From the NCBI GenBank assembly GCA_009914755.4, contig CP086569.2, positions 32,001 to 96,000 of the forward strand: a stretch of DNA of 64,000 nt. The letters run 5' to 3'. Both the position numbers and the translations under genes were made by a program. The stretch is from the human T2T-CHM13v2.0 reference genome, Homo sapiens. Positions 1 through 47,756 of this stretch are shown here, in pieces. Under the pieces are notes generated by a model, which ran no database searches, was not told the DNA's origin, and saw nothing but the letters and a program-made list of their open reading frames with translations. The stretch's first letter is position 1; every line of letters begins with the position of its first letter.

Positions 1-3000
1 CTCTAGAGTCGGCATTGGGCCTAGGTCTCATTGAGGACAGATAGAGACCAGACTGTTGAAACTTTAGAGTCTGCATTGGGCCTAGGTCTCATTGAGGACA
101 GATAGAGGGCAGACTGTGCAACCTTTAGAGTCTACAATGGGCCTAGGTATCAGTGAGGACAAATAGAGAGGAGACTGTGCAACCTTTAGAGTCTGCACTG
201 GCCCTAGGTCTCTTTGAGGACAGACAGAGAGCAGAATGTGCAAACTTTAGAGTCTGCACTGGGCCTAGGTGTCATTGAGGACAGATAGAGACCAGACTGT
301 GCAACCTTTAGAGTCTGCATTGGGCCTAGGTCTCCTTGAGGTCAGACAGACAGCAGACTCTGCAACCTTTAGAGTCTGCATTGGGCCTAGGTCTAATTGC
401 GGACAGATAGACAGCAGACTGTGCAACGTTTAGAGTCTGCATTGGGCCTAGGTCTAATTGCGGACAGATAGAGAGCAGACTATGCAACGTTTAGAGTCTG
501 CATTGGGCCTGGGTCTCATTGAGGACAGATAGAGAGCAGACTGTGCAACCTTTAGGGTCTCTATTGGGCCTAGGTCTCATTGAGGACAGATAGGGAGCGG
601 ACTGTGCAACCTTTAGAGTCTGCATTGGGCCTAGGTCTCATTGAGGGCAGATAGAGAGCAGGCTCGGCAACCCTTAGAGTCTGCATTGGGCCTAGATATC
701 ATTGAGGACAGATAGAGAGCATGCTATGCAACCTTTAGAGTCTGCACTGGGCCTAGGTCTCATTGAGGACACATAGAGAGCAGACTGTGCAACCTTTAGA
801 GTCTGCATTGGGCCTATGTCTCATTGAGGACAGTTAGAGAGCAGACTGTGCAACCTTTAGAGTCTGCATTTGGCCTAGGTCTCATTGAGGACAGAAAGAG
901 ACCAGAGTGTGCAAACTTTAGAGTCTGCATTGGGCCTAGGTCTCATTGAGGACAGATAGAGAGCAGACTGTAGAACCTTTATAGTCTGCATTGGGCCTAG
1001 GTCTCATTGAGGTCAGATAGAGAGCAGACTGTGCAAGCTTTAGAGTCTGCACTTGTCCTAGGTCTCATTGAGGACAGATAGAGAACAGACTGTGCAACCT
1101 TTAGAGTCTGCATTGGGCCTAGGTCTCATTGAGGGCAGTTAGAGAGCAGACTGTGCAAACTTTAGAGTCTGCATTGGGCCTAGGTCTCATTGAGAGCAGA
1201 TAGAGAGCACACTGTGCAAACTCTAGAGTCGGCATTGGGCCTAGGTCTCATTGAGGACAGATAGAGACCAGACTGTGCAAACTTTAGAGTCTGCATTGGG
1301 CCTAGGTCTCATTGAGGACAGATAGAGGGCAGACTGTGCAACCTTTAGAGTCTGCATTGGGCCTAGGTCTCATTGAGGACAGATAGAGAGCAGACTTTGC
1401 AAACTTTAGAGTCTGCACTGGGCCTAGGTCTCATTGAGGGCATATAGAGACCATACTGTGCAAACTTTAGAGTCTGCATTGGGTCTAGGTCTCACTGAGG
1501 AGAGATAGAGAGCAGACTTTGCAAACTTCAGAGTCTGCATTAGGTCTAGGTCTCACTGAGGACTGATAGAGAGCAGACTATGCAACTTTAGAGTCTGCCT
1601 GGCCCTAGGTCTCATTGAGGACAGATAGAGAGCAGACTGCGCAAACTTTAGAGTCTGCATTGGGCCTAGGTCTCACTGAGGACAGATAGAGAGCACACTG
1701 TGTAACCTTTAGAGTTTGCATAGGGCCTCGGTCTCATTGAGGACCGATAGAGAGCAGACTGTGCAACCTTTAGAGTCTGCATTGGGCCTGGGTCTCATTG
1801 AGGAAAAATGGAGAGCCGACTGTGCAACCTTTAGAGTCTGCATTGGGCCTAGGTCTCATTGAGGGCAGATAGAGAGCAGACTGTGCAACCTTTAGAGTCT
1901 GCACTAGGGCTAGGTCTCATCGAGGACAGATAGAGAGCAGACTGTGCAACATTTAGAGTCTGCATTGGACCTAGGTCTCACTGAGGACAGATAGAGAGCA
2001 GACTATGCAAACTTTACAGTCTGCACTGGGCCTAGGTCTCATTGAGGACAGATAGAGAGCAGACTGTGCAACCTTTACAGTCTGCATTGGGCCTGGGTCT
2101 CATTCAGGAGAGATAGAGACCAGAATGTGCAACCTTTAGAGTTTGCATTGGGCCTAGGTCTCTTGAGAGCAGATAGAGAGCAGACTGTGCAACCTTTACA
2201 GTCTGCATTGGGCCTAGGTCTCATTGAGGGCCGATAGAGAGCAGACTGTGCAAACTTTAGAGTCTGCACTGGGCCTAGGTCTGATTGAGGACACATAGAG
2301 AGCAGACTGTGCAACCTTTAGAGTCTGCATTTGGCCTAGGTCTCATTGAGGACAGATGGAGAGCACACTGTGCAACCTTTAGAGTCCGCATTGGGCCTAG
2401 GTCTCATTGAGGACAGATAGAGACCAGACTGTGCAACCTTTAGAGTTTGCATTGGGCCTAGGTCTCATTGAGGGCAGATAGAGAGCAGACTGTGCAACCT
2501 TTAGAGTCTGCATTGGGCCTAGGTCTCATTGAGGACCGATAGAGAGCAGACTGTGCAACCTTTAGACTCTGCATTGGGCCTGGGTCTCATTGAGGACAAA
2601 TAGAGAACAGACTGTGCAACCTTTAGAGTCTGCATTGGGCCTAGGTATCAGTGAGGACAGATAGAGAGGAGACTGTGCAACCTTTAGAGTCTGCACTGGG
2701 CCTAGGTCTCTTTGAGGACAGACAGAGAGCAGACTGTGCAAACTTTAGAGTCTGCACTGGGCCTAGGTGTCATTGAGGACAGATAGAGACCAGACTGTGC
2801 AACCTTTAGAGTCTGCATTGGGCCTAGGTCTCCTTGAGGTCAGATAGACAGCAGAATCTGCAACCTTTAGAGTCTGCATTGGGCCTAGGTCTAATTGCGG
2901 ACAGATAGACAGCAGACTGTGCAACGTTTAGAGTCTGCATTGGGCCTAGGTCTAATTGCGGACAGATAGAGAGCAGACTATGCAACGTTTAGAGTCTGCA

Positions 3001-6000
3001 TTGGGCCTGGGTCTCATTGAGGACAGATAGAGAGCAGACTGTGCAACCTTTAGAGTCTCTATTGGGCCTAGGTCTCATTGAGGACAGATAGGGAGAGGAC
3101 TGTGCAACCTTTAGAGTCTGCATTGGGCCTAGGTCTCATTGAGGGCAGATAGAGAGCAGGCTCGGGAACCCTTAGAGTCTGCATTGGGCCTAGATCTCAT
3201 TGAGGACAGATAGAGAGCATACTATGCAACCTTTAGAGTCTGCACTGGGCCTAGGTCTCATTGAGGACACATAGAGAGCAGACTGTGCAACCTTTAGAGT
3301 CTGCATTGGGCCTATGTCTCATTGAGGACAGTTAGAGAGCAGGCTGTGCAACCTTTACAGTCTGCATTTGGCCTAGGTCTCATTGAGGACAGAAAGAGAC
3401 CAGAGTGCGCAAACTTTAGAGTCTGCATTGGGCCTAGGTCTCATTGAGGACAGATAGAGAGCAGACTGTAGAACCTTTATAGTCTGCATTGGGCCTAGGT
3501 CTCTTTGAGGTCAGATAGAGAGCAGACTGTGCAAGCTTTAGAGTCTGCACTTTGCCTAGGTCTCATTGAGGACAGATAGAGAACAGACTGTGCAACCTTT
3601 AGAGTCTGCATTGGGCCTAGGTCTCATTGAGGGCAGTTAGAGAGCAGACTGTGCAACCTTTAGAGTCTGCATTGGGCCTAGGTCTCATTGAGAGCAGATA
3701 GAGAGCACACTGTGCAACCTCTAGAGTCGGCATTGGGCCTAGGTCTCATTGAGGACAGATAGAGACCAGACTGTGCAAACTTTAGAGTCTGCATTGGGCC
3801 TAGGTCTCATTGAGGACAGATAGAGGGCAGACTGTGCAACCTTTAGAGTCTGCATTGAGCCTAGGTCTCATTGAGGACAGATAGAGAGCAGACTGTGCAA
3901 CCTTTCGAGTCTGCACTGGGCCTAGGTCTCATTGAGGGCATATAGAGACCATACTGTGCAAACTTTAGAGTCTGCATTGGGTCTAGGTCTCACTGAGGAG
4001 AGATAGAGAGCAGACTTTGCAAACTTTAGAGTCTGCATTAGGTCTAGGTCTCACTGAGGACTGATAGAGAGCAGACTATGCAACTTTAGAGTCTGCACTG
4101 GCCCTAGGTCTCATTGAGGACAGATAGAGAGCAGACTGCGCAAACTTTAGAGTCTGCATTGGGTCTAGGTCTCATTGAGGACAGATAGAGAGCACACTGT
4201 GTAACCTTTAGAGTCTGCATAGAGCCTCGGTCTCATTGAGGACCGATAGAGAGCAGACTGTGCAACCTTTAGAATCTGCATTGGGCCTAGGTCTCATTGA
4301 GGGCAGGTAGAGAGCCGACTGTGCAACCTTTAGAGTCTGCATTGGGCCAAGGTCTCATTGAGGTCAGATAGAGAGCACACTGTGCAACCTTTAGAGACTG
4401 CATTGAGCCTGGGTCTCATTGAGGACAGATAGAGAGCAGACTGTGCAACCTTTAGAGTCTGCATTGGGCCTAGGTCTCATTGAGGGCACATAGAGAGCAG
4501 ACTGCACAACCTTTAGAGTCTGCATTGGGCCTACGTCTCATTGAGGGCAGATAGAGAACAGACGGTGCAACCTTTACAGTCTGCATTGGGCCTAGGTCTC
4601 AATGAGGGCAGGTAGAGAGCCGACTGTACAACCTTTAGAGTCTGCATTGGGCCTAGGTCTCATTGAGGGCAGATAGAGAGCAGACGGTGCAACCTTTAGA
4701 GTCTGCATTGGGCCTAGGTCTCATTGAGGACAGATAGAGAGCAGACTGTGCAACCTTTAGAGACTGCATTGAGCCTGAGTCTCATTGAGGACAGATAGAG
4801 AGCAGACTGTGCAACCATTAGAGTCTGCATTGGGCCTAGGTCTCATTGAGGGCACATAGAGAGCAGACTGTGCAACCTTTAGAGTCTGCATTGGGCCTAG
4901 GTCTCATTGAGGACAGATAGAGAGCAGACTGTGCAACCTTTAGAGTCTGCATTGGGTCTAGGGCTCATTGAGGGCAGACAGAGAGCAGACTGTGCAAACT
5001 TTAGAGTCTGCATTGGGCCTAGGTCTCATTGAAGACAGATAGAGAGCAGACTGTGCAACCTTTAGAGTCCGAATTGGGCCTCGGTCTCATTGAGGACCGA
5101 TGGAGAGCAGACTGTGCAACCTTTAGAGTCTGCATTGGGCCTGGGTCTCACTGAGGACAAATAGAGAGCAGACTGTGCAACCTTTAGGGACTGCATTGGA
5201 CCTAGGTCTCATTGAGGACAGATAGAGAGCAGACTAGGCAACCTTTAGAGTCGGCACTGGGCCTAGGTCTCATTGAGGACACATATAGAGCAGACTGTGC
5301 AACCTTTACAGTCTGCATTGGGCCTGGGTCTCATTGAGGACAGATAGAGACCAGACTGTGCAAACTTTAGAGTCTGCATTGGGCCTAGGTCTCATTGAGG
5401 GCAGATAGAGAGCAGACTGTGCAACCTTTAGAGTCTGCACTGGGCCTAGGTCTCATTGAGGACAGATAGAGAGCAGACTGTGCAACCTTTAGAGTCTGCA
5501 TTGGGCCTAGGTCTCATTGAGAGCAGATAGAGAGCATACTGTGCAACCTTTAGAGTCGGCATTGGGCCTAGGTCTCATTCAGGACAGATAGAGAGCAGAC
5601 TAGGCAACCATTAGAGTCGGCACTGGTCCTAGGTCTCATTGAGGACAGATATAGAGCAGACTGTGCAACCTTTAGAGTCTGCATTGTGCCTGGGTCTCAT
5701 TGAGGACAGATAGAGAGCAGAGTGAGCAACCTTTAGAGTCTGCACTGGGCCTAGGTCTCATTGAGGACAGATAGAGAGCAGACTGTGCAACCTCTAGAGT
5801 CTGCATTGGGCCTAGGTCTCATTGAGGGCATTTAGAGAGCAGACTGCGCAACCTTTAGAGTCTGCATTGGGCCTAGGTCTCATTGAGAGCAGATAGAGAG
5901 CACACTGTGCAACCTCTAGAGTCGGCATTGGGCCTAGGTCTCATTGAGGACAGATAGAGACCAGACTGTGCAAACTTTAGAGTTTGCATTGGACCTAGGT

Positions 6001-7498: not shown

Positions 7499-10400
7499 CC
7501 TCTAGAGTCGGCATTGGGCCTAGGTCTCATTGAGGACAGATAGAGACCAGACTGTTGAAACTTTAGAGTCTGCATTGGGCCTAGGTCTCATTGAGGACAG
7601 ATAGAGGGCAGACTGTGCAACCTTTAGAGTCTACAATGGGCCTAGGTATCAGTGAGGACAAATAGAGAGGAGACTGTGCAACCTTTAGAGTCTGCACTGG
7701 CCCTAGGTCTCTTTGAGGACAGACAGAGAGCAGAATGTGCAAACTTTAGAGTCTGCACTGGGCCTAGGTGTCATTGAGGACAGATAGAGACCAGACTGTG
7801 CAACCTTTAGAGTCTGCATTGGGCCTAGGTCTCCTTGAGGTCAGACAGACAGCAGACTCTGCAACCTTTAGAGTCTGCATTGGGCCTAGGTCTAATTGCG
7901 GACAGATAGACAGCAGACTGTGCAACGTTTAGAGTCTGCATTGGGCCTAGGTCTAATTGCGGACAGATAGAGAGCAGACTATGCAACGTTTAGAGTCTGC
8001 ATTGGGCCTGGGTCTCATTGAGGACAGATAGAGAGCAGACTGTGCAACCTTTAGGGTCTCTATTGGGCCTAGGTCTCATTGAGGACAGATAGGGAGCGGA
8101 CTGTGCAACCTTTAGAGTCTGCATTGGGCCTAGGTCTCATTGAGGGCAGATAGAGAGCAGGCTCGGCAACCCTTAGAGTCTGCATTGGGCCTAGATATCA
8201 TTGAGGACAGATAGAGAGCATGCTATGCAACCTTTAGAGTCTGCACTGGGCCTAGGTCTCATTGAGGACACATAGAGAGCAGACTGTGCAACCTTTAGAG
8301 TCTGCATTGGGCCTATGTCTCATTGAGGACAGTTAGAGAGCAGACTGTGCAACCTTTAGAGTCTGCATTTGGCCTAGGTCTCATTGAGGACAGAAAGAGA
8401 CCAGAGTGTGCAAACTTTAGAGTCTGCATTGGGCCTAGGTCTCATTGAGGACAGATAGAGAGCAGACTGTAGAACCTTTATAGTCTGCATTGGGCCTAGG
8501 TCTCATTGAGGTCAGATAGAGAGCAGACTGTGCAAGCTTTAGAGTCTGCACTTGTCCTAGGTCTCATTGAGGACAGATAGAGAACAGACTGTGCAACCTT
8601 TAGAGTCTGCATTGGGCCTAGGTCTCATTGAGGGCAGTTAGAGAGCAGACTGTGCAAACTTTAGAGTCTGCATTGGGCCTAGGTCTCATTGAGAGCAGAT
8701 AGAGAGCACACTGTGCAAACTCTAGAGTCGGCATTGGGCCTAGGTCTCATTGAGGACAGATAGAGACCAGACTGTGCAAACTTTAGAGTCTGCATTGGGC
8801 CTAGGTCTCATTGAGGACAGATAGAGGGCAGACTGTGCAACCTTTAGAGTCTGCATTGGGCCTAGGTCTCATTGAGGACAGATAGAGAGCAGACTTTGCA
8901 AACTTTAGAGTCTGCACTGGGCCTAGGTCTCATTGAGGGCATATAGAGACCATACTGTGCAAACTTTAGAGTCTGCATTGGGTCTAGGTCTCACTGAGGA
9001 GAGATAGAGAGCAGACTTTGCAAACTTCAGAGTCTGCATTAGGTCTAGGTCTCACTGAGGACTGATAGAGAGCAGACTATGCAACTTTAGAGTCTGCCTG
9101 GCCCTAGGTCTCATTGAGGACAGATAGAGAGCAGACTGCGCAAACTTTAGAGTCTGCATTGGGCCTAGGTCTCACTGAGGACAGATAGAGAGCACACTGT
9201 GTAACCTTTAGAGTTTGCATAGGGCCTCGGTCTCATTGAGGACCGATAGAGAGCAGACTGTGCAACCTTTAGAGTCTGCATTGGGCCTGGGTCTCATTGA
9301 GGAAAAATAGAGAGCAGACTGTGCAACCTTTAGAGTCTGCATTGGGCCTAGGTCTCATTGAGGGCAGATAGAGAGCAGACTGTGCAACCTTTAGAGTCTG
9401 CACTAGGGCTAGGTCTCATCGAGGACAGATAGAGAGCAGACTGTGCAACATTTAGAGTCTGCATTGGACCTAGGTCTCACTGAGGACAGATAGAGAGCAG
9501 ACTATGCAAACTTTACAGTCTGCACTGGGCCTAGGTCTCATTGAGGACAGATAGAGAGCAGACTGTGCAACCTTTACAGTCTGCATTGGGCCTGGGTCTC
9601 ATTCAGGAGAGATAGAGACCAGAATGTGCAACCTTTAGAGTTTGCATTGGGCCTAGGTCTCTTGAGAGCAGATAGAGAGCAGACTGTGCAACCTTTACAG
9701 TCTGCATTGGGCCTAGGTCTCATTGAGGGCCGATAGAGAGCAGACTGTGCAAACTTTAGAGTCTGCACTGGGCCTAGGTCTGATTGAGGACACATAGAGA
9801 GCAGACTGTGCAACCTTTAGAGTCTGCATTTGGCCTAGGTCTCATTGAGGACAGATGGAGAGCACACTGTGCAACCTTTAGAGTCCGCATTGGGCCTAGG
9901 TCTCATTGAGGACAGATAGAGACCAGACTGTGCAACCTTTAGAGTTTGCATTGGGCCTAGGTCTCATTGAGGGCAGATAGAGAGCAGACTGTGCAACCTT
10001 TAGAGTCTGCATTGGGCCTAGGTCTCATTGAGGACCGATAGAGAGCAGACTGTGCAACCTTTAGACTCTGCATTGGGCCTGGGTCTCATTGAGGACAAAT
10101 AGAGAACAGACTGTGCAACCTTTAGAGTCTGCATTGGGCCTAGGTATCAGTGAGGACAGATAGAGAGGAGACTGTGCAACCTTTAGAGTCTGCACTGGGC
10201 CTAGGTCTCTTTGAGGACAGACAGAGAGCAGACTGTGCAAACTTTAGAGTCTGCACTGGGCCTAGGTGTCATTGAGGACAGATAGAGACCAGACTGTGCA
10301 ACCTTTAGAGTCTGCATTGGGCCTAGGTCTCCTTGAGGTCAGATAGACAGCAGAATCTGCAACCTTTAGAGTCTGCATTGGGCCTAGGTCTAATTGCGGA

Positions 10401-11750
10401 CAGATAGACAGCAGACTGTGCAACGTTTAGAGTCTGCATTGGGCCTAGGTCTAATTGCGGACAGATAGAGAGCAGACTATGCAACGTTTAGAGTCTGCAT
10501 TGGGCCTGGGTCTCATTGAGGACAGATAGAGAGCAGACTGTGCAACCTTTAGAGTCTCTATTGGGCCTAGGTCTCATTGAGGACAGATAGGGAGAGGACT
10601 GTGCAACCTTTAGAGTCTGCATTGGGCCTAGGTCTCATTGAGGGCAGATAGAGAGCAGGCTCGGGAACCCTTAGAGTCTGCATTGGGCCTAGATCTCATT
10701 GAGGACAGATAGAGAGCATACTATGCAACCTTTAGAGTCTGCACTGGGCCTAGGTCTCATTGAGGACACATAGAGAGCAGACTGTGCAAGCTTTAGAGTC
10801 TGCATTGGGCCTATGTCTCATTGAGGACAGTTAGAGAGCAGGCTGTGCAACCTTTACAGTCTGCATTTGGCCTAGGTCTCATTGAGGACAGAAAGAGACC
10901 AGAGTGCGCAAACTTTAGAGTCTGCATTGGGCCTAGGTCTCATTGAGGACAGATAGAGAGCAGACTGTAGAACCTTTATAGTCTGCATTGGGCCTAGGTC
11001 TCATTGAGGTCAGATAGAGAGCAGACTGTGCAAGCTTTAGAGTCTGCACTTGGCCTAGGTCTCATTGAGGACAGATAGAGAACAGACTGTGCAACCTTTA
11101 GAGTCTGCATTGGGCCTAGGTCTCATTGAGGGCAGTTAGAGAGCAGACTGTGCAACCTTTAGAGTCTGCATTGGGCCTAGGTCTCATTGAGAGCAGATAG
11201 AGAGCACACTGTGCAACCTCTAGAGTCGGCATTGGGCCTAGGTCTCATTGAGGACAGATAGAGACCAGACTGTGCAAACTTTAGAGTCTGCATTGGGCCT
11301 AGGTCTCATTGAGGACAGATAGAGGGCAGACTGTGCAACCTTTAGAGTCTGCATTGAGCCTAGGTCTCATTGAGGACAGATAGAGAGCAGACTGTGCAAC
11401 CTTTCGAGTCTGCACTGGGCCTAGGTCTCATTGAGGGCATATAGAGACCATACTGTGCAAACTTTAGAGTCTGCATTGGGTCTAGGTCTCACTGAGGAGA
11501 GATAGAGAGCAGACTTTGCAAACTTTAGAGTCTGCATTAGGTCTAGGTCTCACTGAGGACTGATAGAGAGCAGACTATGCAACTTTAGAGTCTGCACTGG
11601 CCCTAGGTCTCATTGAGGACAGATAGAGAGCAGACTGCGCAAACTTTAGAGTCTGCATTGGGTCTAGGTCTCATTGAGGACAGATAGAGAGCACACTGTG
11701 TAACCTTTAGAGTCTGCATAGAGCCTCGGTCTCATTGAGGACCGATAGAG
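7499..11750. repeat. Higher-order repeat copy: 7499..~11750 is a near-identical copy of 1..~4250 (offset 7,499 bp, about 123 units)
   Basis: Identical 240-nt ORF artefacts at 2075-2314 and 9574-9813. Diagnostic variant units (e.g. CTCTAGAGTCGGCATTGGG ... GACTGTTGAAAC) occur at 1 and 7499, at 1201 and 8700, and at 3721 and 11220. The copies diverge after ~4250 / ~11750. Confidence 0.85.
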
Positions 11751-24480: not shown

Positions 24481-24599
24481 ATTGAGGACAGATAGAGACC
24501 AGACTGTTAAAACTTTAGAGTCTGCATTGGGCCTAGGTCTAATTGAGGACAGATAGAGGGCAGACTGTGCAACCTTTAGAGTCTGCATTGGGCCTAGGT

Positions 24600-27500: not shown

Positions 27501-30500
27501 GTTTAGAGTCTGCATTGGGCCTGGGTCTCATTGAGGACAGATAGAGAGCAGACTGTGCAACCTTTAGAGTCTCTATTGGGCCTAGGTCTCATTGAGGACA
27601 GATAGGGAGCGGACTGTGCAACCTTTAGAGTCTGCATTGGGCCTAGGTCTCATTGACGGCAGACAGAGAGCAGGCTCGGCAACCCTTAGAGTCTGCATTG
27701 GGCCTAGATCTCATTGAGGACAGATAGAGAGCATACTATGCAACCTTTAGAGTCTGCACTGGGCTTAGTTCTCATTGAGGAAACATAGAGAGCAGACTGT
27801 GCAACCTTTAGAGTCTGCATTAGGCCTATGTCTCATTGAGGACAGTTAGAGAGCAGACTGTGCTACCTTTAGAGTCTGCATTTGGCCTAGGTCTCATTGA
27901 GTACAGAAAGAGACCAGAGTGTGCAACCTTTAGAGTCTGCATTGGGCCTGGGTCTCATTGAGGACAGATAGAGAGGAGACTGTAGAACCTTTATAGTCTG
28001 CATTGGGCCTAGGTCTCATTGAGGTCAGATAGGGAGCAGACTGGGCAAGCTTTAGAGTCTGCACTTGGCCTAGGTCTCATTGAGGACAGATAGAGAACAG
28101 ACTGTGCAACCTTTAGAGTCTGCATTGGGCCTAGGTCTCATTGAGGGCAGTTAGAGAGCAGACTGTGCAACCTTTAGAGTCTGCATTGGGCCTAGGTCTC
28201 ATTGAGAGCAGATAGAGAGCACACTGTGCAACCTCTAGAGTCGGCATTGGGCCTAGGTCTCATTGAGGACAGATAGAGACCAGACTGTGCAAACTTTAGA
28301 GTCTGCATTGGGCCTAGGTCTCATTGAGGACAGATACAGGGCAGACTGTGCAACCTTTAGAGTCTGCATTGGGCCTAGGTCTCATTGAGGTCAGATAGAG
28401 AGCAGACTGTGCAACCTTTAGAGTCTGCACTGGGCCTAGGTCTCATTGAGGGCAGATAGAGACCATACTGTGCAACCTTTAGAGTCTGCATTGGGTCTAG
28501 GTCTCACTGAGGAGAGATAGAGAGCAGACTTTGCAAACTTTAGAGTCTGCATTAGGTCTAGGTCTCACTGAGGACTGATAGAGAGCAGATTATGCAACCT
28601 TTAGAGTCTGCACTGGCCCTAGGTCTCATTGAGGACAGATAGAGAGCAGACTGCGCAAACTTTAGAGTCTGCATTGGGCCTAGGTCTCATTGAGGACAGA
28701 TAGAGAGCACACTGTGTAACCTTTAGAGTCTGCATAGGGCCTCGGTCTCATTGAGGACCGATAGAGAGCAGACTGTGCCACCTTTAGAGTCTGCATTGGG
28801 CCTGGGTCTCATTGAGGAGAAATAGAGAGCAGACTGTGCAACCTTTAGAGTCTGCATTGGGCCTAGGTCTCATTGAGGACAGATGGAGAGCAGACTGTGC
28901 AACCTTTAGAGTCTGCATTGGGCCTAGGTCTCATTGAGGGCACATAGAGAGCAGACTGTGCAACCTTTAGAGTCTGCATTGGGCCTAGGTCTCATTGAGA
29001 GAAGATAGAGAGCATACAGTGCAACCTTTAGAGTCGGCATTGGGCCTAGGTCTCATTGAGGACAGATAGAGACCAGACTGTGAAACCTTTAGAGTCTGCA
29101 TTGGGCCTAGGTCTCATTGAGGACAGATAGAGAGCAGAGTAGGCAACCATTAGAGTCGGCACTGGTCCTAGGTCTCATTGAGGACAGATATAGAGCAGAC
29201 TGTGCAACCTTTAGAGTCTGCATTGGGCCTGGGTCTCATTGAGGACAGATAGAGAGCAGACTGTGCAACCTTTAGAGGCTGCACTGGGCCTAGGTCTCAT
29301 TGAGGACAGATAGAGGGCAGACTGTGCAACCTTTAGAGTCTGCATTGGGCCTAGGTCTCATTGAGGACCGATAGAGAGCAGACTGTGCAACCTTTAGAGT
29401 CTGCACTGGGCCTAGGTCTCATTGAGGGCAGATAGAGACCATACTGTGCAACCTTTAGAGTCTGCATTGGGCCTAGGTCTCACTGAGGAGAGATAGAGAG
29501 CACACTGTGTAACCTTTAGAGACTGCATAGGGCCTCGGTCTCATTGAGGACCGATAGAGAGCAGACTGTGCCACCTTTAGAGTCTGCATTGGGCCTGGGT
29601 CTCATTGAGGACAAATAGAGAGCAGACTGTGCAACCTTTAGAGTCTGCATTGGGCCTAGGTCTCATTGAGGACAGATGGAGAGCAGACTGTGCAACCTAT
29701 AGAGTCTGCATTGGGCCTAGGTCTCATTGAGGACAGATGGAAAGCAGACTGTGCAACCTTTAGAGTCTGCATTGGACCTAGGTCTCATTGAGGACAGATA
29801 GAGAGCAGACTATGCAAACTTTAGAGGCTGGACTGAGCCTAGGTCTCATTGAGGACAGATAGAGAGCAGACTGTGCAACCTTTACAGTCTGCATTGGGCC
29901 TGGGCCTCATTCAGGACAGATAGAGACCAGACTGCGCAACCTTTAGAGTCTGCATTGGGCCTAGGTCTCATTGAGAGTAGATAGAGAGCAGACTGTGCAA
30001 CCTTTAGAGTCTACATTGGGCCTAGGTCTCATTGAGGGCAGATAGAGAGCAGACTGTGCAACCTTTAGAGTCTGCACTTGGCCTAGGTCTCATTGAGGAC
30101 ACATAGAGAGCAGACTGTGCAACCTTTAGAGTCTGCATTGGGCCTAGGTCTCGTTGAGGGCAGATAGAGAGCAGACTGTGCAAACTTTAGAGTTTGCATT
30201 GGGCCTAGGTCTCATTGAGGAGAGATAGAGAGCAGACTGTGCAACCTTTAGAGTCTGCATTGGGCCTAGGTCTCATTGAGGACAGATGGAGAGCACACTG
30301 TGCAACCTTTAGAGTCCGCATTGGGCCTAGGTCTCATTGAGGACAGATAGAGACCAGACTGTGCAACCTTTAGTGTTTGCATTGGGCCTAGGTCTCATTG
30401 AGGGCAGATAGAGAGCAGAATGTGCAACCCTTAGAGTCTGCATTGGGCCTAGGTCTCATTGAGGACAGATAGAGAGCAGACTGTGCAACCTTTAGAGTCT

Positions 30501-33500
30501 GCACTGGGCCTAGGTCTCTTTGAGGACAGACAGAGAGCAGACTGTGCAAACTTTAGAGTCTGCACTGGGCCTAGGTCTCATTGAGGACACATAGAGAGCA
30601 GACTGTGCAACCTTTAGAGTCTGCATTGGGCCTATGTCTCATTGAGGACAGTTAGAGAGCAGACTGTGCAAACTTTAGAGTCTGCATTTGGCCTACGTCT
30701 CATTGAGGACAAAAAGAGACCAGAGTGTGCAACCTTTAGAGTCGGCATTGGGACTCGGTCTCATTGAGGACAGATAGAGAGCAGACTGTAGAACCTTCAT
30801 AGTCTGCATTGGGCCTAGGTCTCATTGAGGTCAGATAGAGAGCAGACTGTGCAAGCTTTAGAGTCTGCACTTGGCCTAGGTCTCATTGAGGACAGATAGA
30901 GAGCAGACTGTGCAAACTTTAGAGTCTGCATTGGGCCTAGGTCTCATTGAGGGCAGATAGAGACCAGACTATGCAACGTTTAGAGTCTGCATTGGGCCTA
31001 GGTGTCATTGAGGGCAGTTAGAGAGCAGACTGTGCAACCTTTAGAATCTGCATTGGGCCTAGGTCTCATTGAGAGCAGATAGAGAGCACACTGTGCAAAC
31101 TTTAGAGTCGGCATTGGGCCTAGGTCTCATTGAGGACAGATAGAGACCGGACTGTGCAACCTTTAGAGTCTGCATTGGGCCTAGGTCTCATTGAGGACAG
31201 ATAGAGAGCACACTAGGCAACCATTAGAGTCCGCACTGGTCCTAGGTCTCATTGAGGACAGATATAGAGCAGACTGTGCAACCTTTAGAGTCTGCATTGG
31301 GCCTGGGTCTCATTGAGGACAGATAGCGACCAGACTGTACAACCTTTAGAGTCTGCATTGGGCTTAGGTCTCATTGAGGGCAGTTAGAGAGCAGACTGTG
31401 CAACCTTTAGAGTCTGCATTGGGCCTAGGTCTCATTGAGAGCAGATAGAGAGCACACTGTGCAACCTCTAGAGTCGGCATTGGGCCTAGGTCTCATTGAG
31501 GACAGATAGAGACCAGACTGTTGAAACTTTAGAGGCTGCATTGGGCCTAGGTCTCATTGAGGACAGATAGAGGGCAGACTGTGCAACCTTTAGAGTCTGC
31601 AATGGACCTAGGTCTCATTGAGGACAGATACGGAGCAGACTGTGCAAACTTTAAAGTCTGCACTGAGCCTAGGTCTCATTGAGGGCAGATAGAGACCAGA
31701 CTGTGCAACCTTTAGAGTCTGCATTGGGTCTAGGTCTCACTGAGGCGAGATAGAGAGCAGACTTTGCAAACTTTAGAGTCTCCATTGGGTCTAGGTCTCA
31801 CTGAGGACTGACAGGAGCAGACTATGCAACCTTTAGAGTCTGCACTGGCCCTAGGTCTCATTGAGGACAGATAGAGAGCAGACTGCGCAAACTTTAGAGT
31901 CTGCATTGGGCCTAGGTCTCACTGAGGACAGATAGAGAGCACACTGTGTAACCTTTAGAGTCTGCATAGAGCCTCGGTCTCATTGAGGACAGATAGAGAG
32001 CAGACTGTGCAACCTTTAGAGTCTCTATTGGGCCTAGATCTCATTGAGGACAGATAGGGAGCGGACTGTGCAACCTTTAGAGTCTGCATTGGGCCTAGGT
32101 CTCATTGAGGGCAGATAGAGAGCAGGCTCGGCAACCCTTAGAGTCTGCATTGGGCCTAGATCTTATTGAGGACAGATAGAGAGCATACTATGCAACCTTG
32201 AGAGTCTGCACTGGGCCTAGGTCTCATTGAGGACACATAGAGAGCAGACTGTGCAACCTTTAGAGTCTGCATTGGGCCTATGTCTCATTGAGGACAGTTA
32301 GAGAGCAGACTGTGCAACCTTTAGAGTCTGCATTTGGCCTAGGTCTCATTGAGGACAGAAAGAGACCAGAGTGTGCAACCTTTAGAGTTTGCATTGGGCC
32401 TAGGTCTCATTGAGGACAGATAGAGAGCAGACTGTAGAACCTTTATAGTCTGCATTGGGCCTAGGTCTCATTGAGGTCAGATAGAGAGCAGACTGTGCAA
32501 GCTTTAGAGTCTACACTTGGCCTAGGTCTCATTGAGGACAGATAGAGAACAGACTGTGCAACCTTTAGAGTCTGCATTGGGCCTAGGTCTCATTGAGGGC
32601 AGTTAGAGAGCAGACTGTGCAACCTTTAGAGTCTGCATTGGGCCTAGGTCTCATTGAGAGCAGATAGAGAGCACACTGTGCAACCTCTAGAGTCGGCATT
32701 GGGCCTAGGTCTCATTGAGGACAGATAGAGACCAGACTGTGCAAACTTTAGAGTCTGCATTGGGCCTAGGTCTCATTGAGGACAGATAGAGGGCAGACTG
32801 TGCAACGTTTAGAGTCTGCATTGGGCCTAGGTCTCATTGAGGACAGATAGAGAGCAGACTGTGAAACCTTTAGAGTCTGCACTGGGCCTAGGTCTCATTG
32901 AGGGCAGATAGAGACCATACTGTGCAACCTTTAGAGTCTGCATTGGGTCTAGGTCTCACTGAGGAGAGATAGAGAGCAGACTTTGCAAACTTTAGAGTCT
33001 ACATTAGGTCTACGTCTCACTGAGGACTGATAGAGAGCAGACTATGCAACCTTTAGAGTCTGCACTGGCCCTAGGTCTCATTGAGGACACATAGAGAGCA
33101 GACTGCGCAAACTTTAGAGTTTGCATTGGGCCTAGGTCTCACTGAGGACAGATAGAGAGCACACTGTGTAACCTTTAGAGTCTGCGTAGGGCCTCGGTCT
33201 CATTGAGGACCGATAGAGAGCAGACTGTGCCACCTTTAGAGTCTGCATTGGGCCTGGGTCTCATGGAGGAGAAATAGAGAGCAGACTGTGCAACCTTTAG
33301 AGTCTGCATTGGGCCTAGGTCTCATTGAGGACAGATGGAGAGCAGACTGTGCAACCTTTAGAGTCTGCATTGGGTCTATGTCTCATTGAGGGCAGATAGA
33401 GACCAGACTGTGCAACCTTTAGAGTTTGCATTGGGCCTAGGTCTCATTGAGGGCAGATAGAGAGCAGACTGTGCCACCTTTAGAGTCTACATTGGGCCTA

Positions 33501-33800
33501 GGTCTCATTGAGGACAGATAGAGAGCAGACTGTGCAACCTTTATAGTCTGCACTGGGCCTAGGTCTCTTTGAGGACAGACAGAGAGCAGACTGTGCAAAC
33601 TTTAGAGTCTGCACTGGGCCTAGGTGTCATTGAGGACAGATAGAGACCAGACTGTGCAACCTTTAGAGTCTGCATTGGGCCTAGGTCTCCTTGAGGTCAG
33701 ATAGGCAGCAGACTGTGCAACCTTTAGAGTCTGCATTGGGTCTAGGTCTAATTGCGGACAGATGGAGAGCAGACTATGCAAAGTTTACAGTCTGCATTGG
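24600..33800. repeat. ~9-kb higher-order block that duplicates ~10600-19900 (offset ~13.85-13.97 kb). A third copy of the 3.4-kb block lies at ~31500-34900
   Basis: Variant-unit strings match between 11221 and 25187 (offset 13,966), between 13321 and 27290, between 17676 and 31521, and between 19861 and 33700. Unit-level indels change the offset by multiples of ~61. Confidence 0.75.
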
Positions 33801-36800
33801 GCCTGGGTCTCATTGAGGACAGATAGAGAGCAGACTGTGCAACCTTTAGAGTCTCTATTGGGCCTAGGTCTCATTGAGGACAGATAGAGAGCAGACTGTG
33901 CAACCTTTAGAGTCTGCATTGGGCCTAGGTCTCATTGAGGGCAGATAGAGAGCAGGCTCGGCAACCCTTAGAGTCTGCGTTGGGCTTAGATCTCATTGAG
34001 GACAGATAGAGAGCATACTATGCAACCTTTAGAGTCTGCACTGGGCCTAGGTCTCATTGAGGACACATAGAGAGCAGACTGTGGAACCTTTAGAGTCTGC
34101 ATTGGGCCTATGTCTCAATGAGGACAGTTAGAGAGCAGACTGTGCAACCTTTAGAGTCTGCATTGGGCCTAGGTCTCATTGAGGACAGATAGAGAGCAGA
34201 CTGTAGAACCTTTATAGTCTGCATTGGGCCTAGGTCTCATTGAGGTCAGATAGAGAGCAGACTGTGCAAGCTTTAGAGTCTGCACTTGGCCTAGGTCTCA
34301 TTGAGGACAGATAGAGAGCAGACTGTGCAACCTTTAGAGTCTGCATTGGGCCTAGGTGTCATTGAGGGCAGATAGAGACCAGACTATGCAACGTTTAGAG
34401 TCTGCATTGGGCCTAGGTGTCATTGAGGGCAGTTAGAGAGCAGACTGTGCTACCTTTAGAGTCTGCATTAGGCCTAGGTCTCATTGAGAGCAGATAGAGA
34501 GCACACTGTGCAAACTTTAGAGTCGGCATTGGGCCTAGGTCTCATTGAGGACAGATAGAGACCGGACTGTGCAACCTTTAGAGTCTGCATTGGGCCTAGG
34601 TCTCATTGAGGACAGATAAAGAGCAGACTAGGCAACCATTAGAGTCGGCACTGGTCCTAAGTCTCATTGAGGACAGATATAGAGGAGACTGTGTAACCTT
34701 TAGAGTCTGCATTGGGCCTGGGTCTCATTGAGGACAGATAGCGACCAGACTGTGCAACCTTTAGAGTCTGCATTGGGTCTAGGTCTCATTGAGGGCAGTT
34801 AGAGAGCAGACTGTGCCACCTTTAGAGTCTGCATTGGGCCTAGGTCTCATCGACAGCAGATAGAGAGCACACTGTGCAACCTCTAGAGTCGGCATTGGGC
34901 CTAGGTCTCATTGAGGACAGATAGAGACCAGACTGTTAAAACTTTAGAGTCTGCATTGGGCCTAGGTCTAATTGAGGACAGATAGAGGGCAGACTGTGCA
35001 ACCTTTAGAGTCTGCATTGGGCCTAGGTCTCATTGAGGACAGATACAGAGCAGACTGTGCAAACTTTAAAGTCTGCACTGAACCTAGGTCTCATTGAGGG
35101 CAGATAGAGACCATAATGTGCAACCTTTAGAGTCTGCATTGGGTCTAGGTCTCACTGAGGAGAGATAGAGAGCAGACTTTGCAAACTTTAGAGTCTCCAT
35201 TGGGTCTAGGTCTCACTGAGGACTGATAGAGAGCAGACTATGCAACCTTTAGAGTCTGCACTGGCCCTAGGTCTCATTGAGGACACATAGAGAGCAGACT
35301 GCGCAAACTTTAGAGTCTGCATTGGGCCTAGGTCTCACTGAGGACAGATAGAGAGCACACTGTGTAACCTTTAGAGTCTGCATAGGGCCTCGGTCTCATT
35401 GAGGACCGATAGAGAGCAGACTGTGCCACCTTTAGAGTCTGCATTGGGCCTGGGTCTCATTGAGGACAAATAGAGAGCAGACTGTGCAACCTTTAGAGTC
35501 TGCATTGGGCCTAGGTCTCATTGAGGACAGATAGAGAGCAGACTGTGCAACCTTTAGAGTCTGCATTGGGCCTAGGTCTCATTGAGGGCAGATAGAGAGC
35601 AGACTGTGCAACCTTTAGAGTCTGCACTGGGCCTAGGTCTCATCGAGGACAGATAGAGAGCAGACTGTGCAACCTTTAGAGTCTGCATTGGACCTAGGTC
35701 TCATTGAGGACAGATAGAGAGCAGACTATGCAAACTTTACAGTCTGCACTGGGCCTAGGTCTCATTGAGGACAGATAGAGACCAGAGTGTGCAACCTTTA
35801 GAGTCTGCATTGGGCCTAGGTCTCATTGAGGACAGACAGAGAGCAGACTGTAGAACCTTTATAGTCTGCATTGGGCCTATGTCTCATTGAGGTCAGATAG
35901 AGAGCAGACTGTGCAAGCTTTAGAGTCTGCACTTGGCCTAGGTCTCATTGAGGACAGATAGAGAGCAGACTGTGCAACCTTTAGAGTCTGCATTGGGCCT
36001 AGGTCTCATTGAGGACAGATAGAGACCAGACTGTGCAACCTTTATAGTCTGCACTGGGCCTAGGTCTCATTGAGGAGAGATAGAGAGCAGACTGCGCAAC
36101 CTTTAGAGTCTTCATTGGGCCTAGGTCTCATTGAGGGCAGATAGAGACCAGAGTGTTCAACCTTTAGAGTCTGCATTGGGCCTAGGTCTCATTGAGGACA
36201 GATAGAGAGCAGACTGTAGAAACTTTATAGTCTGCATTGGGCCTAGGTCTCATTGAGGTCAGATAGAGAACAGACTGTGCAAGCTTTAGAGTCTGCACTT
36301 GGCCTAGGTCTCATTGAGGACAGATAGAGAACAGACTGTGCAACCTTTAGAGTCTGCACTAGGCCTAGGTCTCATTGAGGACAGATAGAGAGCAGACTGT
36401 GCAACCTTTAGAGTCTGCATTGGACCTAGGTCTCATTGAGGACAGATAGAGAGCAGACTATGCAAACTTTAGAGGCTGCACTGAGCCTAGGTCTCATTGA
36501 GGACAGATAGAGAGCAGACTGTGCAACCTTTACAGTCTGCATTGGGTCTGGGCCTCATTCAGGACAGATAGAGACCAGACTGTGCAACCTTTAGAGTCTG
36601 CATTGGGCCTAGGTCTCATTGAGAGCAGATAGAGAGCAGACTGTGCAACCTTTAGAGTCTGCATTGGGCCTAGGTCTCATTGAGGGCAGATAGAGAGCAG
36701 ACTGTGCAAACTTTAGAGTCTGCATTGGGCCTAGGTCTCATTGAGGAGAGATAGAGAGCAGACTGTGCAACCTTTAGAGTCTGCATTGGGCCTAGGTCTC

Positions 36801-39800
36801 ATTGAGGACAGATGGAGAGCACACTGTGCAACCTTTAGAGTCCGCATTGGGCCTAGGTCTCATTGAGGACAGATAGAGACCAGACTGTGCAACTTTAGAG
36901 TCTGCATTGGGCCTAGGTCTCATTGAGGGCAGATAGAGAGCAGACTGTGCAACCTTTAGAGTCTGCACTGGGCCTAGGTCTCATTGAGGACAGATAGAGA
37001 GCAGACTGTGCAACCTTTAGAGTCTGCACTGTGCCTAGGTCTCTTTGAGGACAGACAGAGAGCAGACTGTGCAAACTTTAGAGTCTGCACTGGGCCTAGG
37101 TGTCATTGAGGACAGATAGAGACCAGACTGTGCAACCTTTAGAGTCTGCATTGGGCCTAAGTCTCCTTGAGGTCAGATAGACAGCAGACTGTGCAACCTT
37201 TAGAGTCTGCATTGGGCCTAGGTCTAATTGCGGACAGACAGAGAGCAGACTATGCAACGTTTAGAGTCTGCATTGGGCCTGGGTCTCATTGAGGACAGAT
37301 AGAGTGCAGACTGTGCAACCTTTAGAGTCTCTATTGGGCCTAGGTCTCATTGAGGACAGATAGAGAGCGGACTGTGCAACCTTTAGAGTCTGCATTGGGC
37401 CTAGGTCTCATTGAGGGCAGATAGAGAGCAGGCTCGGCAACCCTTAGAGTCTGCATTGGGCTTAGATCTCATTGAGGACAGATAGAGAGCATACTATGCA
37501 ACCTTTAGAGTCTGCACTGGGCCTAGGTCTCATTGAGGACACATAGAGAGCAGACTGTGCAACCTTTAGAGTCTGCATTGGGCCTATGTCTCATTGAGGA
37601 CAGTTAGAGAGCAGACTGTGCAACCTTTAGAGTCTGCATTTGGCCTAGGTCTCATTGAGGACAGAAAGAGACCAGAGTGTGCAACCTTTAGAGTCTGCAT
37701 TGGGCCTAGGTCTCATTGAGGACAGATAGAGAGCAGACTGTAGAACCTTTATAGTCTGCATTGGGCCTAGGTCTCATTGAGGTCAGATAGAGAGCAGACT
37801 GTGCAAGCTTTAGAGTCTGCACTTGGCCTAGGTCTCATTGAGGACAGATAGAGAGCAGACTGTGCAACCTTTAGAGTCTGCATTGGGCCTAGGTCTCATT
37901 GAGGGCAGATAGAGACCAGACTATGCAACGTTTAGAGTCTGCATTGGGCCTAGGTGTCATTGAGGGCAGTTAGAGAGCAGACTGTGCTACCTTTAGAGTC
38001 TGCATTGGGCCTAGGTCTCATTGAGAGCAGATAGAGAGCACACTGTGCAAACTTTAGAGTCGGCATTGGGCCTAGGTCTCATTGAGGACAGATAGAGACC
38101 GGACTGTGCAACCTTTAGAGTCTGCATTGGGCCTAGGTCTCATTGAGGACAGATAAAGAGCAGACTAGGCAACCATTAGAGTCGGCACTTTTCCTAGGTC
38201 TCATTGAGGACAGATATAGAGCAGACTGTGCAACCTTTAGAGTCTGCATTGGGTCTGGGTCTCATTGAGGACAGATAGCGACCAGACTGTGCAACCTTTA
38301 GAGTCTGCTTTGGGCTTAGGTCTCATTGAGGGCAGTTAGAGAGCAGACTGTGCAACCTTTAGAGTCTGCATTGGGTCTAGGTCTCATTGAGAGCAGATAG
38401 AGAGCACACTGTGCAACCTCTAGAGTCGGCATTGGGCCTAGGTCTCATTGAGGACAGATAGAGACCAGACTGTTAAAACTTTAGAGTCTGCATTGGGCCT
38501 AGGTCTCATTGAGGACAGATAGAGGGCAGACTGTGCAACCTTTAGAGTCTGCATTGGTCCTAGGTCTCATTGAGGACAGATAGAGAGCAGACTGCGCAAA
38601 CTTTAGAGTCTGCATTGGGCCTAGGTCTCACTGAGGACAGATAGAGAGCACACTGTGTAACCTTTAGAGTCTGCATAGGGCCTCGGTCTCATTGAGGACC
38701 GATAGAGAGCAGACTGTGCAACCTTTAGAGTCTGCATTGGGCCTGGGTCTCATTGAGGACAAATAGAGAGCAGACTGTGCAACCTTTAGAGTCTGCATTG
38801 GGCCTAGGTCTCATTGAGGACAGATAGAGAGCAGACTGTGCAACCTTTAGAGTCTGCATTGGGCCTAGGTCTCATTGAGGGCAGATAGAGAGCAGACTGT
38901 GCAACCTTTAGAGTCTGCACTAGGCCTAGGTCTCATCGAGGACAGATAGAGAGCAGACTGTGCAACCTTTAGAGTCTGCATTGGACCTAGGTCTCATTGA
39001 GGACAGATAGAAAGCAGACTATGCAAACTTTACAGTCTGCACTGGGCCTAGGTCTCATTGAGGACAGATAGAGACCAGAGTGTGCAACCTTTAGAGTCTG
39101 CATTGGGCCTAGGTCTCATTGAGGACAGATAGAGAGCAGACTGTAGAACCTTTATAGTCTGCATTGGGCCTAGGTCTCATTGAGGTCAGATAGAGAGCAG
39201 ACTGTGCAAGCTTTAGAGTCTGCACTTGGCCTAGGTCTCATTGAGGACAGATAGAGAGCAGACTGTGCAACCTTTAGAGTCTGCATTGGGCCTAGGTCTC
39301 ATTGAGGACAGATAGAGACCAGACTGTGCAACCTTTATAGTCTGCACTGGGCCTAGGTCTCATTGAGGACAGATAGAGAGCAGACTGCGCAACCTTTAGA
39401 GTCTTCATTGGTCCTAGGTCTCATTGAGGGCAGATAGAGACCAGACTATGCAACCTTTAGAGTCTGCATTGGGCCTAGGTCTCATTGAGGGCAGATAGAG
39501 AGCAGACTGTGCAACCTTTAGAGTATGCATTGGGCCTAGGTCTCATTGAGGGCAGATAGAGAGCAGACTGTGCAACGTTTAGAGTCTGCATTGTGCCTAA
39601 GTCTCATTGAGGACAGATAGAGAGCAGACTGTGCAACCTTTCGAGTCTGCACTGGGCCTAGGTCTCATTGAGGGCAGATAGGGACCAGAGTATGCAACCT
39701 TTAGAGTCTGCACTGGGCCTAGGTCTCATTGAGGGCAGATAGAGACCAGACTATGCAACCTTTAGAGTCTGCATTGGGACCCCAGAAATCCTAAACTTTG

Positions 39801-44645: not shown

Positions 44646-44703
44646 GGGTGGGTGAGGACTGCCACGTCCCGTTTTCCTGGTAAAGACATCTTTTTTCTAG
44701 CAG

Positions 44704-47111: not shown

Positions 47112-47756
<645 letters not shown>

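What the first reader, a model, noticed from the sequence alone, without database searches (positions are those of the whole stretch)
1..39780. ~40-kb satellite of 61-bp units with three nested higher-order periodicities (7,499 bp, ~3,415 bp, ~13.9 kb)
The array is not a homogeneous minisatellite. Diagnostic variant units recur at fixed long offsets:
- 1-4250 matches 7499-11750 (offset 7,499 bp). The two ORF artefacts at 2075-2314 and 9574-9813 are identical, which makes this obvious.
- 17641-21060 is tandemly duplicated at 21061-24480 (offset 3,415 bp).
- ~10.6-19.9 kb is copied at ~24.6-33.8 kb (offset 13,845-13,966 bp, differing by whole units).
- A third copy of the 3.4-kb block appears at ~31.5-34.9 kb.

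This layered structure implies repeated unequal-crossover or segmental-duplication events within the array, and probably large copy-number polymorphism. The array runs off the window start, so its true size is unknown.
Basis: seen in the sequence. Interest (0 to 1): 0.7.

Follow-up and report, generated by a model that had tools for sequence, protein, structure and literature searches.

The report
Known human pseudoautosomal 61-bp minisatellite array
This is a 40-kb-plus human minisatellite of 61-bp units, most likely the known one at the tip of the X/Y pseudoautosomal region, and nearly half of the visible array comes from three very recent in-register tandem duplications (3.4, 7.5 and 10.4 kb), so it is real but ordinary.

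Summary
Window 1-39778 is one head-to-tail array of 652 units of 61 bp, all in one orientation. Shuffling unit order never gives a high-identity run longer than 9 units; the observed maximum is 112.

These are not three nested higher-order periods. Three two-copy tandem duplications, each in register with the 61-bp unit, explain every long offset:
- 7,499 bp (123 units).
- 10,429 bp (171 units).
- 3,415 bp (56 units, zero mismatches).
- A separate 122-bp slip accounts for the small offset difference.

The "13.9 kb" offsets are simply 10,429 + 3,415 (+122). No short or array-wide higher-order repeat (HOR) exists. An older layer at about 96-97% identity shows irregular periods of about 1.6, 2.5, 3.0 and 3.4 kb.

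The DNA is human. The array is most likely the 61-bp VNTR of Xp22.33/Yp11.32 (PAR1), already described with "irregular HORs of 1.6 and 2.5 kb" (Warburton 2008). The likely mechanism is unequal homologous exchange between misaligned units. Already known; low interest.

The parts
1..39778 (+). 61-bp minisatellite array of 652 units, all in one orientation. Consensus: TAGAGTCTGCATTGGGCCTAGGTCTCATTGAGGACAGATAGAGAGCAGACTGTGCAACCTT. It runs off the window start and ends abruptly at 39778.
   Evidence: TRF. Segmentation. 645 forward and 0 reverse-complement consensus hits. CpG observed/expected 0.105, GC 0.49, GC skew +0.17 to +0.19 throughout. Junction sequence.
1..4269 (+). E1, visible part of copy 1 of a 7,499-bp (123-unit) duplication. 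The block is still matching at window position 1, so it continues to the left.
   Evidence: 6 mismatches in 4266 bp against 7503-11768, with a sharp drop to background after unit 69.
7500..11768 (+). E1, matching part of copy 2. In the tandem model copy 2 is units 70-192, that is 4270-11768.
   Evidence: Indel-bearing units 24/33/65 recur as units 147/156/188.
10611..24576 (+). E2 copy Q1 of a 10,429-bp (171-unit) tandem duplication. It was later enlarged by E3 and by a 2-unit slip.
   Evidence: Q1 ends at unit 402 and Q2 begins at unit 403, which is a copy of unit 174. There are 6 + 6 mismatches over 4452 + 5428 bp.
24577..35005 (+). E2 copy Q2. It carries a single copy of the 3.4-kb block, at 30981-34395.
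   Evidence: Diagonals at offsets 229, 227 and 171 units. Exact-match runs at 10429, 13844 and 13966 bp.
17102..24021 (+). E3, a perfect tandem duplication of 3,415 bp (56 units). T1 is 17137-20551 and T2 is 20552-23966. This is the youngest event.
   Evidence: 0 mismatches in 3415 bp. The exact self-match at offset 3415 runs 3505 bp, from 17102 to 20606.
14941..15184 (+). 2-unit (122-bp) tandem duplication present in Q1 only. It explains why the two long offsets differ (13,966 vs 13,844 bp).
   Evidence: Units 245-246 and 247-248 both match Q2 units 474-475, with 0-1 mismatch. A 147-bp exact run at offset 122.
7503..11707 (+). Example of the older layer: 28 units repeated at an offset of 41 units (2,498 bp), at 97.1% identity. 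Other examples are 10062-12195 with 13111-15245 (50 units, 96.8%), 5734-7685 with 36653-38603 (97.2%) and 6100-7075 with 7747-8722 (27 units = 1,647 bp, 95.5%).
   Evidence: Analysis after collapsing the three recent duplications. Offset ranking.
39779..40036 (.). 258 bp of unique sequence marking the right boundary of the array. An unrelated 26-bp minisatellite follows at 40037-42603.

Best explanation
This is a large, old, non-coding human minisatellite (VNTR) of 61-bp units. It is most likely the known 61-bp array of distal PAR1 (Xp22.33/Yp11.32).

Its units have drifted to about 89% mutual identity. The array now grows in large steps rather than unit by unit. Misaligned but in-register copies of the array recombine, between sister chromatids or homologues, or through an equivalent replication or break-induced template switch. 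Each such event creates a tandem duplication of tens to hundreds of units.

An older round of the same process left 15-35-unit blocks at 96-97% identity with irregular periods of about 1.6, 2.5, 3.0 and 3.4 kb. The youngest 3.4-kb duplication re-used one of these older periods.

Shown: the blocks, their identities, their in-register junctions and their adjacency. Inferred: the recombination mechanism, the tandem nature of the 7.5-kb event (its first copy starts outside the window) and the PAR1 address.
For: Structure:
- One uniform array in a single orientation.
- Duplicated blocks are 99.86-100% identical against a 0.893 background, with breakpoints sharp to within a unit.
- Q2 starts exactly where Q1 ends. 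T2 follows T1 with a 3505-bp exact match, which is the period plus 90 bp. That excess fits exchange within a tract of identity.
- All junctions keep the 61-bp phase. Random breakage would do this in 1 of 61 cases per event.
- Offsets 227 and 229 units equal 171 + 56 (+2).
- Shuffle control: at most 9 units against 112 observed.
- The diagonal at 56 units continues at about 97% beyond the perfect block (units 337-346 vs 393-402). A 96% block at offset 56 remains after collapsing the recent events. So the new duplication re-used an older 56-unit period.
- Variation is spread over all 61 positions with no conserved core, and CpG is depleted to 0.105. Both fit neutral decay.

Species:
- ORFs from the window occur exactly in contigs of human gut and oral metagenomes, at 99.5-100% DNA identity.

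Locus:
- Warburton et al. 2008 (PMC2588610) list only two >10-kb VNTRs of 61-bp period in hg18. Both are at Xp22.33/Yp11.32, with 'irregular HORs of 1.6 and 2.5 kb in a complex arrangement'. The older layer here has offsets of 1,647 and 2,498 bp.
- Contig L005 matches window 44665-45861 at 99.7%. It then continues into exons 100% identical to human GTPBP6, a PAR1 gene.
- The T2T-Y paper reports previously unknown satellite arrays mainly in PAR1, and Alu and GA-repeat enrichment there. The window flank is similar.
Against: - No human reference sequence could be searched, so the PAR1 address rests on literature and on one contig.
- L005 departs from the window after about 45.9 kb inside a local ~325-bp repeat. 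Its join to GTPBP6 is probably a short-read chimera.
- hg18 was incomplete, so other 61-bp arrays could exist in regions unsequenced in 2008.
- The first copy of the 7.5-kb event begins left of the window, so its tandem nature is a prediction, not an observation.
- Unequal crossover, sister-chromatid exchange and replication template switching leave the same footprint and cannot be told apart here.
- Near-perfect duplicates could in principle be assembly errors.
Confidence: 0.8

Rival explanations
1. The array is a true higher-order-repeat satellite, as in alpha satellite. A multi-unit block of fixed length would be iterated along the array and homogenised as a block, with three nested periods.
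For: Block copies are far more alike (99.9-100%) than units within a block (about 89%). That contrast is the signature of HORs. The 56-unit period occurs as two perfect copies, one copy in Q2 and an older partial copy. Warburton 2008 also uses 'HOR' for this kind of VNTR.
Against: Each long period has only two adjacent copies and covers a different part of the array. No offset is enriched array-wide once the three events are collapsed: the best is 166 units at 0.912 against a median of 0.894, caused by a few blocks. Offsets of 1-40 units are flat. The 13.9-kb 'period' is the arithmetic sum of two events.
Confidence: 0.07
2. One or more of the near-identical blocks is an assembly artefact. This could be a false tandem duplication, or two allelic versions of the array (X/Y or maternal/paternal) concatenated.
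For: E3 is 100% identical over 3.4 kb. E1 and E2 differ by about 0.13%, which is in the range of allelic divergence. Q1 and Q2 differ by exactly the kind of changes that distinguish VNTR alleles: a 56-unit and a 2-unit copy-number change. The T2T-Y paper says PAR1 had HiFi coverage gaps that were patched with ONT assemblies.
Against: The clone-based 2008 reference already showed complex higher-order structure in the PAR1 61-bp array. An older 96-97% layer of the same kind of block duplication shows that the process is genuine and recurrent. All junctions are clean and in register. No reads were available to test this directly.
Confidence: 0.1
3. The 61-bp units are the CpG-island '61-mer' of the subtelomeric TAR1 / TERRA promoter (61-29-37 repeats), here amplified.
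For: Same unit length, and a chromosome-end setting is plausible.
Against: That element occurs in about 2-7 copies, is CpG-rich, binds CTCF, and sits next to 29-bp and 37-bp arrays and the telomere. Here there are 652 copies with CpG observed/expected of 0.105. The neighbouring arrays have periods of 26, 28/56, 19/35 and 55 bp, and there is no TTAGGG run in 64 kb.
Confidence: 0.02

Closest known systems
Human PAR1 61-bp VNTR at Xp22.33/Yp11.32 (Warburton et al. 2008, BMC Genomics 9:533, Table 1 and Fig. 2G). From my memory, untested: the hypervariable locus DXYS20 / repeat family DXYZ2 of Page et al. 1987.
   Same: Human DNA and a 61-bp unit. The array exceeds 10 kb. The internal order is complex and irregular, with periods of about 1.6 and 2.4-2.5 kb (1,647 and 2,498 bp here). 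The surroundings are GC-, Alu- and minisatellite-rich. A contig links the flank to the PAR1 gene GTPBP6.
   Different: The reference arrays of 2008 were 18.6 and 11.3 kb; the 18.6-kb one, from my memory of the assembly gap tables and not checked here, ended at an assembly gap. This copy is at least 39.8 kb and shows three further, much younger duplications (3.4, 7.5 and 10.4 kb) not mentioned there. Sequence identity to the reference array could not be checked.
Other large locus-specific human VNTRs with higher-order structure, such as the 40-bp array at 1p36.32 and the 38-bp array at 3q29 in Warburton's Table 1
   Same: Short GC-rich units, arrays of tens of kb near chromosome ends, and multi-unit blocks visible in dot plots.
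   Different: Unrelated unit length and locus.
Alpha-satellite higher-order repeats
   Same: Units within a block are diverged, while block copies are near-identical. Unequal exchange is the accepted generator.
   Different: Alpha HORs are iterated hundreds to thousands of times with one fixed period and underlie centromeres. Here each block has 2-3 copies, periods differ along the array, and there is no evidence of a centromere role.
Mouse PAR mo-2 minisatellite (Acquaviva et al. 2020; from my own knowledge)
   Same: A minisatellite array in the pseudoautosomal region, where male meiotic breaks are very frequent.
   Different: Different unit (31 bp) and sequence. The mouse array is shown to recruit break-promoting proteins. 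Nothing of the kind was tested or is known to me for this human array.

Membership tests
Human PAR1 61-bp VNTR (Warburton 2008) | Tandem unit of 61 bp in an array larger than 10 kb | tested here: met
   TRF period 61, 652 copies, 39.8 kb. 639 of the 650 measured unit lengths are exactly 61 bp.
Human PAR1 61-bp VNTR (Warburton 2008) | Human sequence | tested here: met
   Window ORFs are found exactly in human gut and oral metagenome contigs. DNA identity is 99.5-100% over 0.65-2.6 kb.
Human PAR1 61-bp VNTR (Warburton 2008) | Irregular higher-order blocks of about 1.6 and 2.4-2.5 kb | tested here: met
   The older 95.5-97% layer has offsets of 27 units (1,647 bp) and 41 units (2,498 bp), among others.
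Human PAR1 61-bp VNTR (Warburton 2008) | Location in distal Xp22.33/Yp11.32 | tested here: inconclusive
   Indirect only. These are the only 61-bp VNTRs >10 kb in hg18. Contig L005 joins the window flank to GTPBP6 exons, but probably through a repeat-mediated chimera.
Human PAR1 61-bp VNTR (Warburton 2008) | Sequence identity of the unit to the reference array | not testable with these tools
   There is no human genome collection, the paper gives no consensus and no supplements are held. A full-text search for unit fragments found nothing.
Higher-order-repeat satellite (alpha-satellite type) | Block copies much more alike than units within a block | tested here: met
   99.86-100% against 89%.
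Higher-order-repeat satellite (alpha-satellite type) | One multi-unit period iterated many times across the array | tested here: not met
   There are two adjacent copies per event, with different periods in different parts of the array. No array-wide period remains after collapsing the events.
TAR1 / TERRA-promoter 61-29-37 repeats | A few CpG-rich 61-bp units next to 29-bp and 37-bp arrays and the telomere | tested here: not met
   652 units, CpG observed/expected 0.105, no arrays of period 29 or 37, no TTAGGG runs. Features taken.

The most novel reading that the evidence does not exclude
The distal PAR1 61-bp array could be more than neutral junk. It might be the human counterpart of the mouse PAR mo-2 minisatellite: a cis-acting platform that concentrates break-promoting proteins and so helps secure the obligatory X-Y crossover. 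The near-perfect multi-kb duplications would then be scars of very frequent meiotic breaks repaired from a misaligned sister. Nothing here excludes this reading. Nothing here supports it beyond the probable location and the evidence of recent, repeated unequal exchange.
Probability: 0.06. Interest if true: 0.8.

Novelty: already known. Interest (0 to 1): 0.2.

Why it matters
It matters little as a discovery. A 61-bp VNTR with complex higher-order structure in human PAR1 was described in 2008, and unequal exchange in minisatellites is textbook.

The useful outcome is a clean decomposition. Three discrete, datable tandem duplications and one slip explain every long-range signal. About 45% of the visible array is recent, which predicts large structural polymorphism between haplotypes. 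Such internal block maps could serve as markers of PAR1 haplotype history. They also serve as checks on assembly correctness in a region known to be hard to assemble.

Tried and rejected
- Whole-array ungapped autocorrelation loses register through 11 short units and gave misleading broad peaks near 4-5 kb. I replaced it with unit segmentation.
- Rfam scan of the window found no family.
- Full-text searches for fragments of the 61-, 26- and 55-bp units, and for '61-bp' with satellite/T2T or VNTR/long-read, found nothing.
- '61-bp repeat' led to the TERT intron-2 VNTR. From memory that VNTR is only a few kb, and no TERT gene signal turned up in the window, though I did not search for TERT exons. 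I rejected it.
- A 61-bp insertion in CEACAM18 is irrelevant.
- Searches for DXYS20/DXYZ2 gave only a false match to DXYS201.
- TAR1 61-mer: considered and rejected on copy number, CpG content and context.
- Synteny test: bird loci with the intact regucalcin-like gene show no GTPBP6 within 10 kb, so this was uninformative.
- Ordering E1 against E2 from the 19 units present in three copies: every difference is a singleton, so there is no information.
- The T2T-Y paper and a 2026 chromosome-end paper contain no description of this array.
Full report
**1. What is there**

TRF reports a single 61-bp array from 4 to 39778, with 652.3 copies, 89% matches and 0% indels. Base composition is constant across it: GC 0.49 and GC skew +0.17 to +0.19. 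CpG is strongly depleted, with observed/expected 0.105.

All units point the same way: 645 forward and 0 reverse-complement matches to the consensus. The array runs off the left end of the window. On the right it stops abruptly at 39778. Then come 258 bp of unique sequence and an unrelated 26-bp minisatellite.

**2. Checking the long-range identities**

Ungapped autocorrelation of the whole array was misleading because a few short units shift the register. I therefore cut the array into 652 units.

Eleven units are 59 or 60 bp long, and their positions already show the pattern:
- Units 24/33/65 recur as 147/156/188 (7,499 bp apart).
- Unit 293 recurs as 349 (3,415 bp) and as 520 (13,844 bp).
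- Unit 188 recurs as 417 (13,966 bp).

In the unit-by-unit identity matrix the background is 0.893, and five long diagonals stand out. Per-unit mismatch profiles show they are nearly perfect with sharp ends. At base level:

| Block | Matches | Mismatches |
|---|---|---|
| 1-4269 | 7500-11768 | 6 in 4266 bp |
| 10611-15062 | 24577-29028 | 6 in 4452 bp |
| 15063-20490 | 28907-34334 | 6 in 5428 bp |
| 20552-24576 | 30981-35005 | 6 in 4025 bp |
| 17137-20551 | 20552-23966 | 0 in 3415 bp |

For the last pair, the exact self-match at offset 3415 is 3505 bp long.

Shuffling the order of the units 50 times never produced a high-identity run longer than 9 units, against 112 observed. It never produced more than 6 qualifying windows, against 1939 observed.

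**3. What the pattern means**

The five diagonals reduce to three events plus a slip. Units are numbered from 0 at window position 4.

- **E2.** A 171-unit block Q was duplicated in tandem. Q1 ends at unit 402, and Q2 starts at unit 403 as a copy of unit 174. The period is 10,429 bp.
- **E3.** Inside Q1 only, a 56-unit block T was duplicated in tandem (units 281-336 and 337-392) with no mismatch. This is the youngest event.
- **E1.** Units 0-69 equal units 123-192, and identity is still perfect at window position 1. The simplest reading is a tandem duplication of 123 units. Its first copy would start 53 units left of the window and its second copy would be units 70-192. This makes a testable prediction about the unseen sequence.

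The offsets of 227 and 229 units (13,844 and 13,966 bp) are then just 171 + 56 and 171 + 56 + 2. The 'third copy of the 3.4-kb block' is the single T carried in Q2.

So the real periods are 3,415, 7,499 and 10,429 bp. Each is present as two adjacent copies. Together these events supply about 297 of the 652 visible units.

There is no classical short HOR. Mean identity at offsets of 1-40 units is flat at 0.890-0.896, and neighbouring units are no more alike than distant ones.

**4. An older layer**

After removing the recent copies (355 units left), blocks of 15-35 units still recur at 95.5-97% identity. Their offsets are irregular: 27, 41, 50, 54-58, 75, 91, 114, 125, 166 and 280 units.

The diagonal at 56 units continues at about 97% just beyond the perfect T1/T2 block. 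A 96% block at offset 56 also survives collapsing. The newest duplication therefore re-used a pre-existing 56-unit period, as expected if misalignment prefers older paralogous blocks.

Variation among units is spread over all 61 positions, with a few common two-state sites and no conserved core. That fits neutral drift.

**5. Mechanism (inferred)**

All junctions preserve the 61-bp phase. Random breakage and joining would do so once in 61 per event. The duplicated copies are adjacent, and the exact match in E3 exceeds the period by 90 bp.

These features fit homologous exchange between misaligned copies of the array. That could be unequal sister-chromatid or inter-homologue crossover, or an equivalent template switch during replication or break repair. 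The sequence cannot distinguish among these.

With a standard human mutation rate of about 1.2e-8 per bp per generation (my own knowledge), the 0.13-0.14% divergence of E1 and E2 gives an upper bound of the order of 1-2 million years. Clustered differences, such as three in one unit of Q2, suggest that conversion inflates this estimate. The order of E1 and E2 cannot be resolved.

**6. Where it comes from**

The flank carries Alu elements. ORFs from the window occur letter-for-letter in contigs of human gut and oral metagenomes, which match the window at 99.5-100%. The DNA is therefore human.

Warburton et al. 2008 (PMC2588610) catalogued all tandem arrays above 10 kb in hg18. The only ones with a 61-bp period are two at Xp22.33/Yp11.32, of 18.6 and 11.3 kb. 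The former has 'irregular HORs of 1.6 and 2.5 kb in a complex arrangement'. The older layer here has periods of 1,647 and 2,498 bp.

Independently, contig L005 matches the window flank at 99.7% up to about 45.86 kb. It then continues into two exons that are 100% identical to human GTPBP6, a PAR1 gene. The switch occurs inside a local ~325-bp repeat, so the join is probably a short-read chimera. Landing on a PAR1 gene by chance is nevertheless unlikely.

The T2T-Y paper notes previously unknown satellite arrays mainly in PAR1, and Alu and GA-repeat enrichment there. From memory, untested: the hypervariable pseudoautosomal locus DXYS20 / DXYZ2 was described in 1987 as a 61-bp repeat. I put the PAR1 assignment at about 0.8. 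No human reference was available for a direct test.

**7. Alternatives**

- A true iterated HOR is disfavoured by the two-copy, region-specific nature of each period.
- An assembly artefact cannot be excluded without reads. Q1 and Q2 differ in just the way two alleles might, and PAR1 is hard to assemble. However, the clone-based 2008 reference already showed this kind of structure, and the older layer shows the process is genuine.
- The TAR1/TERRA 61-mer shares only the unit length. Copy number, CpG content, neighbouring arrays and the absence of telomere repeats all argue against it.

**8. Verdict**

The feature is real and highly non-random. It is a known kind of thing and very probably a known locus. 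The signal comes from three discrete tandem duplications and one slip, laid over an older irregular block structure. Interest is low.

The only reading that would raise the interest, a role for the array in pseudoautosomal break formation like mouse mo-2, is untested speculation.

Noticed in passing
window 45273-45406 and 46459-46625 (+ strand): Remnants of the last two coding exons of a regucalcin (RGN / SMP-30)-like gene, each broken by a frameshift. Similarity to human regucalcin residues 189-284 is about 55-68%. The best database relatives are bird 'RGN, partial' proteins at about 62%, which belong to an intact 5-exon gene in penguin and other bird contigs. This looks like a unitary pseudogene of an RGN paralogue lost in humans. 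No upstream exons are in the window, so they may be lost or lie beyond the 40-kb array.
   Followed up: partly
window 40037-42603: 26-bp minisatellite (CTCGGGCCGTGACAGGAAGAGGGGGT) with 98.7 copies and 94% matches. It is GC 0.66 with strong G skew (+0.41). It creates a spurious 937-aa ORF on the minus strand. A weak 2- and 13-unit periodicity shows in the autocorrelation.
   Followed up: partly
window 60016-64000: Very homogeneous 55-bp minisatellite with at least 72 copies and 97% matches. It runs off the right end of the window. Identity is flat with distance, so unlike the 61-bp array there is no higher-order structure.
   Followed up: partly
window 43685-44642: Degenerate 28/56-bp tandem array (GATGGGGACAAGGTCATCCCTGGATGTT) at about 65-76% matches, lying just upstream of the RGN-like exon remnants.
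   Followed up: no
window 50756-51575: GA-rich 19/35/106-bp tandem array (AGCTAGAGAGAGGGGGGT) with CpG observed/expected of 0.035. GA-rich repeats are reported to be enriched in PAR1 and to cause HiFi coverage drop-outs.
   Followed up: no
window 45685-46260; L005 2080-2600 and 5145-5374: A local ~325-bp repeat, present in two diverged copies in the window (77-79% alike). A 93-94% copy lies in an intron of GTPBP6 on contig L005. Two independent short-read contigs (L005, L006) leave the window's path inside this repeat.
   Followed up: partly
window 47112-47745, 52294-52862 and many sites in 47-60 kb: Dense Alu content, including two adjacent Alu pairs that TRF scores as 293-319-bp 'tandem repeats'. 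Most long ORFs in 47-60 kb are Alu-derived.
   Followed up: no
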